A DNA stretch of 22,540 nucleotides, taken from a virus. Lineage: Duplodnaviria; Heunggongvirae; Uroviricota; Caudoviricetes. Shown in pieces: positions 20,857 to 21,329 of the stretch (positions are counted from its first letter, which is position 1; every line of letters starts with the position of its first letter). The DNA is taken from the IMG/VR virus record IMGVR_UViG_2526164690_000046; one strand, 5' to 3'. The translations under genes were made by a program, and so were the position numbers. The notes beneath the pieces were generated by a model. That model worked only from the letters and a program-made list of their open reading frames with translations, ran no database searches and was not told where the DNA came from.

Positions 20857-21045
20857 TCAGTCTGGTTCAGTTCGTTGCCATACCTGCAATGAGCGCTTTT
20901 CCCTGTACTCTTTAAGGAATTGCTCAAGGGCAAAAGCACATGGCGCGAATCTTTCTGATTCATGCTCTATCTTTCTGCGCCGTCTTTTCCGTGCCGGTGA
21001 TAATGTTTTGGTCAATTCTTTATCGGTCATTGTGTTGTCCTGCAT
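20857..21045 (-). CDS. Small basic hypothetical protein (62 aa; start uncertain)
   Basis: Track ORF 42 nt downstream of the RHH gene on the same strand; poly-basic stretch ARKRRRRK; weak SD. Confidence 0.35.
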   Translation of the reverse strand: MQDNTMTDKELTKTLSPARKRRRRKIEHESERFAPCAFALEQFLKEYREKRSLQVWQRTEPD

Positions 21046-21087
21046 AGCAATGCGCCGTAATACCTCACACCACGGCGCTGATAGTTT

Positions 21088-21261
21088 TTATCCTTTGGGT
21101 TCTATGCCGCGTTGCTGTAATTCTTTGCGGAGAACGCGTTTAATCCAAGTGGCTAAAGATGTGTCGCCATCGGCCTTAGCTGCTTCTTCTAGCTGCGCTC
21201 TGAAGTCTTCCGGTAATCGCATTTGGTATGGAGGCGAACGTTTTTCTAATGGTGTTGACAT
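21088..21261 (-). CDS. Arc/MetJ-type ribbon-helix-helix DNA-binding protein (57 aa)
   Basis: My translation MSTPLEKRSPPYQMRLPEDFRAQLEEAAKADGDTSLATWIKRVLRKELQQRGIEPKG; ..YQMRLPEDFRAQLEEAAKA.. is a typical Arc-like strand-helix start; not in the track (<60 aa). Confidence 0.6.
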   Translation of the reverse strand: MSTPLEKRSPPYQMRLPEDFRAQLEEAAKADGDTSLATWIKRVLRKELQQRGIEPKG

Positions 21262-21329
21262 GGTAATTACCCTTCATTACTATACCTACATGGTAATTAC
21301 CATTGTACTTGCCATTACACAAAAATCAA
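21255..21329. promoter_or_regulatory. Divergent promoter region with two palindromic operator candidates GGTAATTACC
   Basis: Palindromes at 21262-21271 and 21292-21301 inside a 14-bp direct repeat ACATGGTAATTACC; plus-strand TTGACA (21255-21260) overlaps the RHH start with a poor -10 (TACTAT); minus-strand -35 TTGATT (complement of 21324-21329) and -10 TACAAT (complement of 21302-21307). Confidence 0.5.

What the first reader, a model, noticed from the sequence alone, without database searches (positions are those of the whole stretch)
20857..21329. Divergent RHH plus small basic protein module with paired palindromic operators inside the P4/PICI-like island
A 57-aa Arc-type RHH gene and a 62-aa poly-basic gene lie on the minus strand, opposite to int, alpA and the Icd-like genes. 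Their 5' region holds two exact GGTAATTACC palindromes 30 bp apart, placed between the -35 and -10 of the plus-strand promoter and just downstream of the minus-strand -10. This geometry fits an autoregulated RHH switch controlling the Icd-like operon, or an RHH-antitoxin-type two-gene module; the 62-aa partner has no family I recognise.
Basis: partly seen in the sequence, partly recalled or inferred. Interest (0 to 1): 0.7.

Follow-up and report, generated by a model that had tools for sequence, protein, structure and literature searches.

The report
Hidden repressor module in phage satellite
A small DNA-binding repressor gene with its own binding sites, plus a tiny orphan partner gene, lies unannotated on the opposite strand inside a long read-through reading frame of an E. 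coli phage satellite, and is a good candidate for the "missing" master repressor of Gram-negative phage-inducible islands.

Summary
On the minus strand are a 57-aa ribbon-helix-helix (RHH) gene (21088-21261) and a small partner gene (20857-21030; 57 aa from the conserved start, not 62). Two ACATGGTAATTACC sites lie 30 bp apart over two face-to-face promoters. The RHH occurs in about 60 species of Gammaproteobacteria. Its operator changes with its DNA-reading beta-strand: QMRL with GGTAATTACC, Q(I/L)RL with TGTAATTACA, FPMRL with GGTATATACC. The best reading is an autoregulated Mnt/Arc-like repressor of the satellite's early promoter. That promoter sits on top of a P4-type RNA immunity unit (isrK, C4 RNA, Icd/Kil-like ORF). 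The toxin-antitoxin reading is not supported. The partner is an orphan, one-helix protein found only in E. coli/Shigella. It pairs with three unrelated RHH types and is absent elsewhere. Both genes lie antisense inside a 409-codon plus-strand ORF that starts 14 nt after alpA and is kept open. This ORF looks like an extended P4 eta, and RefSeq annotates it in place of the minus-strand genes. The model island EcCICFT073 carries the same layout. No function has been tested.

The parts
20502..20708 (+). alpA (Vis/AlpA-type excisionase/activator), last gene of the int side
   Evidence: PHROG 2790/66 'excisionase and transcriptional regulator' E about 2.5e-6; Pfam Phage_AlpA E=0.0028, below the gathering score. 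RefSeq calls it an HTH regulator.
20723..21952 (+). 409-codon read-through ORF (extended eta-like). It starts 14 nt after the alpA stop and runs antisense through the terminator, the partner, the RHH and the operators, then in frame into the Ash/Icd ORF.
   Evidence: Residues 1-223 have no family hit. The non-genic stretches are stop-free with joint P of 2e-4 to 5e-3 per locus. The frame is open in 7 of 8 E. coli loci and is a 428-aa ORF in EcCICFT073. The P4 eta precedent is described in PMC10111431.
20735..20767 (-). Intrinsic terminator of the RHH-partner operon (14-bp stem, T6 on the minus strand; only a weak T-tract on the plus strand)
20857..21030 (-). Partner gene, 57 aa: variable, often Arg-rich N-tail and an invariant core E-x-E-S-E-R-F-A-P-C-x-F-x-L-E-x-F-L-K
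   Evidence: 36 homologues, conserved start and SD. PHROG 21027, unknown function, E=1.6e-15. Replacements are conservative in this frame (mean BLOSUM62 -0.02) and radical in the antisense frame (-1.60). AlphaFold2: disordered tail plus one long helix, residues 34-59.
21052..21078 (-). Intercistronic inverted repeat GCGCCGT / ACGGCGC between the RHH and the partner (57-nt spacer)
   Evidence: Read from the sequence; also present in EcCICFT073. Not analysed further.
21088..21261 (-). RHH repressor gene, 57 aa (beta-strand PPYQMRLP, helix 18-31, G-D-T-S turn, helix 36-50)
   Evidence: PHROG 228 Arc-like repressor E=1.5e-6; NF041551 YlcI/YnfO E=0.0014; Pfam Arc E=0.038. 93 homologue clusters of about 57 aa. 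AlphaFold2 model. All Foldseek PDB hits are RHH proteins, led by AmrZ 3qoq at 37% identity.
21258..21271 (.). Operator O1 (ACATGGTAATTACC): in the spacer of promoter P1, abutting the RHH start codon and overlapping its SD
21288..21303 (.). Operator O2 (ACATGGTAATTACCAT, containing a perfect 14-bp palindrome): at about +1 of P1 and directly after the -10 of P(-)
21255..21283 (+). Promoter P1 (TTGACA-17-TACTAT). Its -35 is formed by RHH codons 1-2.
   Evidence: The geometry is conserved in other genera.
21302..21329 (-). Promoter P(-) of the RHH-partner operon (TTGATT-16-TACAAT)
   Evidence: A conserved TAnAAT abuts O2 in other genera.
21329..21362 (.). Conserved stem-loop, followed by TCTAACCA on the plus strand and by a T-run on the minus strand
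   Evidence: Present in 31/31 loci; 7/10 pairs compensatory; 93% paired against 27-47% for slid controls. No Rfam family. Strand unresolved.
21392..21952 (+). eta-like ORF proper (186 aa; Ash domain plus Icd-like domain), SD AGGAG at 21382
   Evidence: PHROG 29966 E=5.5e-109 over residues 224-409; Pfam Phage_ASH E=1.8e-16; NF033153 Icd-like E=1e-15.
21485..21514 (+). Second promoter-like site (TTGATC-18-TATGAT), 6 nt before isrK: analogue of P4 PLE
21521..21597 (+). isrK-type RNA (relative of P4 seqA / C4 target) ending in an intrinsic terminator
   Evidence: Rfam RF01394, 66 bits against a gathering score of 50. Terminator at 21575-21593.
21619..21706 (+). C4 / P4-CI-type immunity RNA
   Evidence: Rfam RF01695, 77.6 bits against a gathering score of 45.
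21761..21952 (+). Nested Icd-like / Kil-like ORF (63 aa), in the same frame as eta
   Evidence: RefSeq CDS WP_150322679.1; NF033153.

Best explanation
The 57-aa protein is an Arc/Mnt-type RHH repressor. RHH dimers bind the two ATGGTAATTACC(AT) palindromes. O1 lies in the spacer of the plus-strand promoter P1, and O2 lies at P1's start site and directly after the -10 of the repressor's own promoter. The repressor therefore shuts off P1 and limits its own synthesis.

P1 heads the satellite's early operon: leader, eta-like Ash/Icd ORF, replication genes. Further downstream the operon carries a P4-type RNA immunity unit: a PLE-like promoter, isrK with a terminator, the C4/CI RNA and a nested Icd/Kil ORF. 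A P1 transcript carries the eta start, so by analogy with P4 it would be translated through the immunity terminator and escape it. On this reading the RHH guards the immunity-insensitive route into the early operon and keeps the island quiescent.

The repressor operon lies antisense inside a plus-strand ORF that begins 14 nt after alpA and is kept free of stops. When a helper phage switches on alpA, translated read-through transcription would cross the terminator, run head-on through the partner and RHH genes and lower repressor synthesis, then continue in frame into eta.

The partner gene is co-transcribed with the repressor. It is a real but accessory gene: a 57-aa single-helix protein, often with an Arg-rich tail, that moves between islands independently of the repressor type. 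Its role is unknown. My best guess is a nucleic-acid- or protein-binding auxiliary factor expressed in the quiescent state, not a toxin.

Shown: the genes, sites, geometry, conservation, covariation, RNA families and the open frame. Inferred: DNA binding, repression, read-through, interference and everything about the partner's function.
For: RHH identity:
- Profile hits, the AlphaFold2 beta-alpha-alpha topology, and a Foldseek hit list made up only of RHH proteins.
- 93 homologue clusters of constant length, about 57 aa, across Enterobacterales, Pasteurellaceae, Orbaceae, Aeromonas and Oceanimonas.
- Replacements are conservative in this frame and radical in the antisense frame: mean BLOSUM62 0.21 against -0.88. 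Wobble changes silent only in the sense frame number 2119, against 1238 silent only in the antisense frame.

Operators:
- Two sites about 30 bp apart, the proximal one abutting the ATG, in 50+ loci.
- The site sequence tracks the beta-strand: QMRL with GGTAATTACC (19/22), Q(I/L)RL with (T/A)GTAATTACA (10/10), FPMRL with GGyrTATACC, FQFRL with TGTAATTAxC.
- Where an unrelated YlcI/YnfO-type RHH occupies the slot, the sites become three direct repeats that differ between islands, together with the protein's N-terminal strand.
- The sites overlap both core promoters.

Context:
- alpA, then partner and RHH on the opposite strand, then Icd-like, recurs with different integrases, attachment sites and replication modules, in Pasteurella Pmp8 and in EcCICFT073.
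- isrK and C4 score above the Rfam gathering thresholds, with a PLE-like promoter 6 nt before isrK as in P4.

Open plus-strand frame: (20 of 33 loci stop-free through the RHH against 8.4 expected). The P4 eta mechanism and its coupling to the alpA homologue are described in PMC10111431. AlpA activates downstream EcCICFT073 genes, and a repressor of Gram-negative PICIs is described as 'unclear', in PMC6092414.

Partner:
- Conserved start, SD and core, present in 1505 of 5426 complete E. coli genomes.
- 100% identical next to unrelated RHH types.
- Absent downstream of the RHH in other species and in L008.
Against: - No binding, expression or phenotype data exist for any part.
- Pfam Arc and NCBIfam YlcI/YnfO scores are below their curated cut-offs, and all Foldseek E-values are above 1, as expected for a 45-residue fold.
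- Two dimers 30 bp apart is not the classic Arc/Mnt tetramer-on-21-bp arrangement, so stoichiometry and cooperativity are unknown.
- The antisense frame is closed in about 40% of RHH loci from other species, so read-through translation cannot be essential everywhere.
- Promoters are consensus matches only.
- With operators over both promoters, the RHH could also act mainly on its own operon.
- For the partner, dN/dS (0.16-0.46) cannot separate the two strands because wobble positions coincide, and the wobble-only test was neutral (21 against 19).
Confidence: 0.7

Rival explanations
1. The pair is a type II toxin-antitoxin module: the RHH is an autoregulating antitoxin and the small basic protein is its toxin.
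For: The gene order (RHH first, small ORF second) and palindromic operators over the promoter fit many RHH-antitoxin operons. Some databases name RHH homologues 'HicB family antitoxin'. Foldseek hits include RHH antitoxins such as VapB, MazE9, AtaR and ParD.
Against: - The RHH ends about 7 residues after helix 2, so there is no toxin-binding tail.
- The partner has no hit in Pfam, NCBIfam, PADLOC or PDB sequences. It is predicted as one helix plus a disordered tail.
- The identical partner sits beside three unrelated RHH types.
- The RHH is solitary in about 50 other species and in L008.
- The genes are 57 nt apart, not overlapping.
- The partner gene is more widespread (1505 genomes) than this RHH type (589 genomes).
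Confidence: 0.06
2. The minus-strand ORFs are non-coding shadows. The real gene is the long plus-strand ORF (Bro-N/eta/Ash/Icd protein) that RefSeq annotates here, and the palindromes are sites for another regulator such as AlpA.
For: The plus-strand frame is significantly stop-free across diverged loci. It carries a real Bro-N N-terminus in EcCICFT073. PGAP annotates pieces of it in O26/O111. Wobble positions coincide, so low dN/dS fits either strand.
Against: - The RHH has independent profile and fold evidence and a canonical beta-strand/G-x-S/T pattern.
- The RHH is conserved at constant length even where the plus-strand frame is closed.
- Replacements are conservative in the minus-strand frames and radical in the plus-strand frame.
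- The plus-strand translation of the overlap is Cys/Ser/Arg-rich with no family.
- Operators co-vary with RHH beta-strand residues.
- PGAP itself annotates the minus-strand genes in CFT073, O111 11128 and other genomes.
Confidence: 0.04
3. The RHH is a CopG/omega-type replication or copy-number controller of the excised satellite rather than the quiescence repressor. It would tune the rep operon after induction.
For: The controlled operon leads into replication genes: DUF4222, RepA helicase or primase. CopG-type RHHs of similar size appear in the fold hits. The RHH also occurs on plasmids (33 of 610 places; L007).
Against: CopG-type regulators are normally the first gene of the rep operon, not divergent from it. 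Here the operators cover a promoter that also heads the immunity/Icd unit. The module sits exactly where phages place Mnt- or CI-type maintenance repressors. The two roles are not mutually exclusive.
Confidence: 0.1
4. The partner is an arginine-rich-motif RNA-binding peptide of the lambda N / HK022 Nun type. It would act on a hairpin in the satellite leader or on helper nut sites to modulate termination.
For: The partner has an Arg-rich disordered N-tail followed by a helix. A conserved stem-loop lies in the leader. Known helpers of E. coli PICIs are lambdoid (PMC6092414).
Against: The basic tract is missing in one partner subfamily (L003/L006) and sits at the C-terminus in P0133. The leader hairpin is present in all loci, including those without a partner. 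There is no sequence similarity to N or Nun, and no test was possible.
Confidence: 0.08

Closest known systems
Phage P22 immI region (Mnt and Arc RHH repressors, Pant/Pmnt face-to-face promoters, sar antisense RNA) - from established knowledge
   Same: A small RHH repressor is transcribed divergently from the promoter it represses. Its operators overlap both face-to-face promoters, so it autoregulates. An RNA regulator acts in the same region.
   Different: There is no antirepressor gene in the controlled operon here. Two separate 14-bp palindromes lie 30 bp apart instead of one 17-21-bp operator. The RNA layer is C4/isrK-type, not sar. The repressor operon lies antisense inside a translated read-through ORF.
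Satellite phage P4 immunity region (vis - eta/kil - PLE - seqA - CI RNA), as summarised in PMC10111431 and seen in NC_001609
   Same: An AlpA/Vis homologue is followed at once by a long ORF (eta). That ORF contains an internal promoter, isrK/seqA-like and C4/CI RNAs and a nested Icd/Kil ORF in the same frame.
   Different: P4 has only about 70 nt between the vis stop and isrK and has no RHH, no partner and no leader stem-loop. Here about 680 nt carrying the antisense repressor operon and an extra RHH-controlled promoter are inserted, and the eta frame is extended back to alpA.
Phage P1/P7 immI (C1-controlled promoter - c4 RNA - icd - ant) - from established knowledge
   Same: A protein repressor's operator sits at the promoter of an operon that encodes a C4 antisense RNA followed by an icd-type ORF. 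Translation of icd decides downstream transcription.
   Different: The repressor there is C1 (not an RHH) and is encoded elsewhere. The operon ends in ant, whereas here it continues into replication genes.
SaPI/PICI master repressor Stl (Rpr) of Gram-positive islands (PMC6092414)
   Same: Position and logic match: a repressor gene diverges from the xis/replication operon next to int and keeps the island silent until a helper phage acts.
   Different: Stl proteins are large HTH repressors removed by binding helper proteins. This is a 57-aa RHH, and the known induction route in Gram-negative PICIs is helper-dependent alpA expression. No anti-repressor is known.
YlcI/YnfO family (NF041551) small proteins of lambdoid prophages and PICIs
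   Same: They occupy the same slot in sister islands, including EcCICFT073. They have the same size, a weak profile match to this RHH (E=0.0014), and their own co-varying repeats over the same promoter.
   Different: Their sequence is unrelated at BLAST level. Their operators are three direct repeats of about 11 bp rather than two palindromes. No function is published.

Membership tests
Ribbon-helix-helix (Arc/MetJ) superfamily | Profile similarity to RHH families | tested here: met
   PHROG 228 'Arc-like repressor' E=1.5e-6. The weaker hits, Pfam Arc E=0.038 and NF041551 E=0.0014, are both below their curated cut-offs.
Ribbon-helix-helix (Arc/MetJ) superfamily | Beta-strand / helix A / G-x-S/T/N turn / helix B topology in about 45 residues | tested here: met
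   AlphaFold2 gives an extended N-terminus, helices 18-31 and 36-50, and a D-G-D-T-S turn. All 47 Foldseek PDB hits are RHH proteins (AmrZ, Arc, NikR, CopG, antitoxins), but with E-values above 1.
Ribbon-helix-helix (Arc/MetJ) superfamily | Dimer inserts its beta-sheet into the major groove of repeated or palindromic operators | not testable with these tools
   Indirect support only: operator sequence co-varies with beta-strand residues in 40+ loci.
Type II toxin-antitoxin system with RHH antitoxin | Partner belongs to a toxin family or fold | tested here: not met
   No hit in Pfam, NCBIfam, PADLOC or PDB sequences. Only 9 relatives among 1.84 billion representatives. The model is one helix plus a disordered tail.
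Type II toxin-antitoxin system with RHH antitoxin | Antitoxin carries a toxin-neutralising extension beyond the DNA-binding domain | tested here: not met
   Only about 7 residues (RGIEPKG) follow helix B.
Type II toxin-antitoxin system with RHH antitoxin | Cognate pair is inherited together | tested here: not met
   The identical partner occurs with three unrelated RHH types. The RHH occurs without the partner in about 50 species.
Type II toxin-antitoxin system with RHH antitoxin | Partner is toxic and is neutralised by the RHH | not testable with these tools
   Needs expression experiments.
P4-type immunity unit (vis-eta/kil-CI) | C4/CI-type RNA and its isrK/seqA-type target region | tested here: met
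   RF01695 77.6 bits (gathering score 45) and RF01394 66 bits (gathering score 50). The order and spacing match P4.
P4-type immunity unit (vis-eta/kil-CI) | Long ORF starting next to the alpA/vis stop that encloses the promoter, the RNAs and a nested Icd/Kil ORF in frame | tested here: met
   ORF 20723-21952 starts 14 nt after the alpA stop. Nested starts are at 21392 and 21761. The PLE-like promoter is at 21485-21514.
P4-type immunity unit (vis-eta/kil-CI) | Translation of eta suppresses immunity-specific termination | not testable with these tools
   Only stop-codon avoidance in the frame is shown.
Gram-negative phage-inducible chromosomal island (PICI) | int - alpA - replication module - packaging/capsid genes in about 9-15 kb at a specific attachment site | tested here: met
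   RefSeq annotation of the identical island lists int, alpA, DUF4222, RepA helicase, terS and major capsid at tRNA-Pro. The same module is present in EcCICFT073.
Gram-negative phage-inducible chromosomal island (PICI) | Induction and transfer by a helper phage | not testable with these tools
   Not tested for this island. Shown for EcCICFT073 in PMC6092414.

The most novel reading that the evidence does not exclude
This RHH, together with its YlcI/YnfO-type substitutes, is the long-sought maintenance repressor of Gram-negative PICIs. Its operon is deliberately nested antisense inside a translated extension of eta. One event, helper-triggered alpA transcription coupled to translation of that frame, would then do three things at once: melt the repressor operon's terminator, silence repressor synthesis by head-on transcription, and carry ribosomes into eta so that the C4/CI RNA immunity is bypassed. 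That would be a two-layer (protein plus RNA) switch flipped by read-through. The conserved leader stem-loop and the orphan partner protein would be further parts of the switch.
Probability: 0.35. Interest if true: 0.75.

Novelty: new variant of a known kind. Interest (0 to 1): 0.6.

Why it matters
The 2018 paper that defined Gram-negative PICIs states that a global repressor in these islands is 'unclear' and that only the activator AlpA is known. I found no later paper in the searchable library that describes one.

A conserved, divergently transcribed RHH with co-varying operators over the early promoter is a concrete, testable candidate. It is present in 11% of complete E. coli genomes as this type, in many more as YlcI/YnfO-type substitutes, in the model island EcCICFT073, and in about 60 other species.

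The region is also a clear case where genome annotation hides real genes. RefSeq labels the antisense read-through frame as 'Icd-like' and 'ash' pseudogenes and drops both minus-strand genes in O26/O111.

The stop-free antisense frame running through a repressor operon is an unusual overlap. It can be tested with mutations that are silent on one strand. The operator/beta-strand series gives a natural specificity code for a minimal RHH, which could be useful for engineering orthogonal repressors.

Tried and rejected
- Partner family searches found nothing informative. Pfam, NCBIfam and PADLOC gave no hit. PDB sequences searched with a profile gave none. The exhaustive search of 1.84 billion representatives gave 9 hits, one of them a spurious repeat protein.
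- dN/dS for the partner (0.16-0.46) was dropped as a strand test once I saw that the plus-strand frame shares wobble positions with both minus-strand genes. It was replaced by BLOSUM and wobble-only tests. The wobble-only test was uninformative for the partner (21 against 19).
- The PDB sequence search for the RHH returned designed helical repeat proteins, which are spurious, and only a weak AmrZ hit.
- Foldseek E-values were not significant, so only the composition of the hit list is used.
- P4 itself was checked for an RHH or leader hairpin; neither is present.
- I first labelled P1 as the PLE analogue. I corrected this after finding a second promoter 6 nt before isrK.
- Literature searches for YlcI/YnfO, for RHH or Arc in PICIs, and for an EcCICFT073 repressor found nothing relevant. 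The EcCIMP1 'repressor' is a PerC-like protein, unrelated to this module.
- Rfam has no family for the leader stem-loop, even at E up to 1.
- A possible pairing between the leader 3' flank and C4 RNA was considered and dropped, because most RHH loci have no C4.
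Full report

Yes. The minus strand holds an ORF of 57 aa (21088-21261) and one of 62 aa (20857-21045). GGTAATTACC occurs exactly twice in the 22.5-kb window, at 21262 and 21292. With one mismatch allowed there are 3 sites against 0.51 expected. The two copies are the cores of a 14-nt repeat, ACATGGTAATTACC, with start-to-start spacing of 30.

A consensus scan finds two face-to-face promoters:
- Plus strand: TTGACA (21255) - 17 nt - TACTAT (21283).
- Minus strand: TTGATT (21329) - 16 nt - TACAAT (21302).

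Site 1 therefore lies in the plus-strand promoter's spacer and abuts the RHH start codon. Site 2 lies at about +1 of the plus-strand promoter and directly after the minus-strand -10.

One correction is needed. All homologues of the second ORF begin at its sixth codon. The upstream ATG is not conserved, whereas a CAGG Shine-Dalgarno before ATG 21030 is. The product is therefore 57 aa.

**2. Where the window comes from**

The region is 100% identical to an island of E. coli O26:H11 and related EHEC strains. That island comprises int, a small ORF, alpA, Icd-like ORFs, DUF4222, RepA helicase, terS and major capsid, and sits at tRNA-Pro beside yejM. This is a Gram-negative PICI-type phage satellite.

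RefSeq does not annotate the two minus-strand genes there. Instead it labels the plus strand as a pseudogene 'Icd-like protein' (window 20723-21238) and a pseudogene 'ash family protein'.

The window's own left flank matches only two O111:H11 genomes. In those, the same island sits inside a Rac/lambdoid prophage, between the Q antiterminator region and the lysis genes.

**3. The RHH**

Family and fold evidence:
- The 57-aa protein matches PHROG 228 'Arc-like repressor' (E=1.5e-6). It matches the YlcI/YnfO N-terminal model (E=0.0014) and Pfam Arc (E=0.038) more weakly, both below their cut-offs.
- AlphaFold2 gives an extended N-terminus, helix 18-31, a D-G-D-T-S turn and helix 36-50.
- All 47 Foldseek hits in the PDB are RHH proteins. 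AmrZ is closest at 37% identity and 1.4 Å; Arc, NikR, CopG and RHH antitoxins follow. The E-values are above 1, as expected for so small a fold.

Distribution: 93 clusters of homologues, nearly all 56-58 aa and 61-98% identical. They occur in Enterobacterales, Pasteurellaceae, Gilliamella, Aeromonas and Oceanimonas.

**4. Operators co-vary with the protein**

I fetched 60 loci from other species and eight from E. coli. In nearly all, two palindromes lie about 30 bp apart upstream of the RHH, and the proximal one touches the start codon. The proximal site tracks the beta-strand:

| Beta-strand | Proximal site | Count |
|---|---|---|
| QMRL | GGTAATTACC | 19 of 22 |
| Q(I/L)RL | (T/A)GTAATTACA | 10 of 10 |
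| FPMRL | GG(C/T)(G/A)TATACC | 2 of 2 |
| FQFRL | TGTAATTA(A/G)C | 3 of 7 (rest mis-windowed) |

In L008 and in Shigella the sites are exact although the sequence between them has diverged.

In sister islands the slot is filled by an unrelated 59-aa 'YlcI/YnfO family' protein. The palindromes are then replaced by three direct repeats around a TTGACG -35. These repeats differ between islands together with the protein's N-terminal strand: GTGGCTGACAC, GTGTTCAACAC, GTGTCCGACAC, and GTGGGCCACAC in EcCICFT073.

This is the pattern expected of a repressor and its operators, that is, of immunity specificities. The -35 TTGACA of the plus-strand promoter is formed by RHH codons 1-2 (ATG TCA A). This explains the near-invariant Met-Ser.

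**5. What the RHH controls**

Downstream of the plus-strand promoter P1 lie, in order:
- a conserved stem-loop (21329-21362);
- an SD and ATG at 21392, opening a 186-aa ORF (PHROG 29966, E=5.5e-109; Pfam Phage_ASH plus NCBIfam Icd-like);
- a second promoter-like site at 21485-21514;
- an isrK-type RNA (21521-21597) ending in an intrinsic terminator;
- a C4-type RNA (21619-21706), with both RNAs above the Rfam gathering scores;
- a nested 63-aa Icd-like ORF (21761-21952).

P4 has the same order: vis, a long ORF, isrK 8 nt after the PLE -10, then C4 (= CI). PMC10111431 summarises the P4 mechanism. A constitutive promoter inside eta makes the CI RNA and a transcript that terminates early. Kil is a truncated Eta. 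[quoted passage not shown]

By this analogy:
- 21485-21514 corresponds to PLE;
- 21392-21952 corresponds to eta;
- 21761-21952 corresponds to kil;
- P1 is an extra, RHH-controlled promoter whose transcript carries the eta start and so should be insensitive to the RNA immunity.

The RHH would thus close the immunity-insensitive route into the early and replication genes. P4 itself has no RHH, no partner and no leader stem-loop. Only about 70 nt separate the vis stop from isrK.

**6. The long plus-strand frame**

The plus-strand frame that shares wobble positions with both minus-strand genes is open from an ATG 14 nt after the alpA stop (20723) through to 21952, a total of 409 codons.

- The same holds in 7 of 8 E. 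coli loci (220-607 codons), including loci whose RHH and operators are unrelated. The spacer between the two minus-strand genes is always a multiple of three.
- In EcCICFT073 the frame is a 428-aa ORF with a Bro-N-like N-terminus and an Icd-like C-terminus.
- Shuffling only the stretches that are non-genic on the minus strand gives a joint probability of 2e-4 to 5e-3 per locus for having no stop.
- Across 33 diverse loci, the frame is stop-free through the RHH in 20, against 8.4 expected under synonymous resampling. It is closed in about 40% of loci from other species.
- The plus-strand translation of the overlap is Cys/Ser/Arg-rich and has no family.
- Amino-acid replacements are conservative in the minus-strand frames and radical in the plus-strand frame. 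Mean BLOSUM62 is 0.21 against -0.88 for the RHH and -0.02 against -1.60 for the partner. For the RHH, wobble changes silent only in the sense frame outnumber the reverse, 2119 to 1238.

I conclude that the minus-strand proteins are the selected products in the overlap. The plus-strand frame is kept open because it is translated, not because of what it encodes. It acts as an extension that keeps alpA-eta coupling across the inserted repressor module.

Read-through from the alpA promoter would be convergent with the repressor operon, so it could also silence it. That step is inference. It is consistent with AlpA activating downstream EcCICFT073 genes and its own promoter (PMC6092414).

**7. The partner**

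- Distribution: 36 homologues by word search and 9 representatives among 1.84 billion proteins, all from E. coli or Shigella apart from one spurious repeat protein.
- Conserved core: E-x-E-S-E-R-F-A-P-C-x-F-x-L-E-x-F-L-K. The Arg-rich tract is absent in one subfamily (L003/L006) and C-terminal in P0133.
- Structure: AlphaFold2 predicts a disordered tail and one long helix, with pLDDT 92 over the core.
- Families: no hit in Pfam, NCBIfam, PADLOC or PDB. The only match is PHROG 21027, of unknown function.
- Prevalence: the gene occurs in 1505 of 5426 complete E. coli genomes, against 589 for this RHH type.
- Linkage: it is 100% identical next to a YlcI/YnfO-type RHH in L005 and in EcCICFT073. 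It is missing after the RHH in L008 and in other species.
- Transcription: it lies between the RHH and a strong minus-strand terminator (20735-20767), and no promoter of its own was detected.

It is therefore a real, mobile accessory gene of the repressor operon, expressed in the quiescent state. Together with the RHH's lack of a C-terminal extension, these facts argue against a toxin-antitoxin pair. Its function remains a guess.

**8. Known or new?**

The RHH fold, autoregulation through operators over face-to-face promoters (as in P22 Mnt/Arc) and the P4 eta/kil/CI unit are all known.

What I could not find described is an RHH, or a YlcI/YnfO-type protein, acting as repressor in Gram-negative PICIs. 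[quoted passage not shown] PMC10111431 lists integration, Bro, replication and late zones without it. Further searches found nothing. The searchable library is incomplete, so an earlier description cannot be excluded.

The antisense nesting of the repressor operon in a stop-free extension of eta, and the conserved leader stem-loop, also appear to be undescribed.

**9. Verdict**

The 'autoregulated RHH switch' interpretation is supported by comparative evidence, and the TA alternative is not. I classify this as a new variant of a known kind, with interest 0.6. All functional steps await experiment.

Noticed in passing
window 20723-21391 (+), continuing to 21952: RefSeq/PGAP annotates this plus-strand frame as pseudogenes ('Icd-like protein', 'ash family protein') in O26/O111 genomes, and as 'BRO-N domain' fragments elsewhere. 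This suppresses both minus-strand genes. In other genomes, such as CFT073 and O111 11128, the minus-strand genes are annotated instead. The annotation is inconsistent for near-identical DNA.
   Followed up: yes
window 21329-21362 (plus TCTAACCA at 21363-21370): A stem-loop is conserved in 31/31 loci across genera. 7 of 10 pairs show compensatory changes, 93% of cells are paired, 0 of 500 shuffles reach this, and slid controls give 27-47%. There is no Rfam family and it is absent from P4. Non-Watson-Crick cells favour the minus-strand RNA (15 against 5), and the minus strand has a T-run that doubles as the -35 of the RHH promoter. It may be a minus-strand terminator/insulator or a plus-strand leader element.
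   Followed up: partly
window about 16500-18540 and L078: In the window the satellite is embedded in a Rac/lambdoid prophage. It lies downstream of the Q antiterminator, TerB, DUF3927 and a truncated DUF1737 gene, and upstream of a truncated DUF6645 gene and the lysis genes. The junction is near 18538. This placement occurs in only 2 of 5426 genomes; elsewhere the same island is at chromosomal tRNA-Pro/yejM. It resembles the 'helper-embedded PICI' configuration, in which helper late transcription could read into int-alpA.
   Followed up: partly
window 21392-21760 (+): The Pfam 'Phage_ASH' match (residues 263-356 of the long ORF) lies on top of the isrK and C4 RNA genes. The conservation of this protein family may largely reflect the RNAs and a frame kept open for translation.
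   Followed up: no
window 21255-21261: The -35 hexamer TTGACA of the plus-strand promoter is the reverse complement of RHH codons 1-2 (ATG TCA A). This probably explains why Met-Ser is nearly invariant at the N-terminus of the family.
   Followed up: partly
L003 2423-3667 and L006 2423-3548: Some islands carry two regulatory modules in tandem: partner plus RHH, then a second YlcI/YnfO-type gene, before the Icd-like ORF. In L003 the plus-strand frame is open for 607 codons across both.
   Followed up: no
L007 2497-5313 (plasmid pNDM_2_P21_SE1_04.20): A type-B RHH with its operators and the leader stem-loop sits upstream of a WYL / DUF1819 / DUF1788 (BREX-like) gene set on an NDM plasmid, next to an IS3 fragment. 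The satellite control region appears to have been reused to drive defence genes.
   Followed up: no
window 21052-21078: An inverted repeat, GCGCCGT ... ACGGCGC, lies in the 57-nt spacer between the RHH and the partner. It is also present in EcCICFT073 and may set the ratio of the two products.
   Followed up: no
window 1557-1735, 14156-14331, 17952-18142, 18144-18205: Rfam hits in the flanking prophage: RalA antitoxin RNA (225 bits), sok antitoxin RNA next to hokD (120 bits), STnc100 (135 bits) and AgvB anti-GcvB sRNA on the minus strand (76 bits).
   Followed up: no
L077 8700-8770 (EcCICFT073): The motif TCTAACCA preceded by a GC-rich hairpin also occurs directly before the ATG of the 428-aa Bro-N/eta-like ORF of EcCICFT073. 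It mirrors the hairpin plus TCTAACCA element of the early leader.
   Followed up: no
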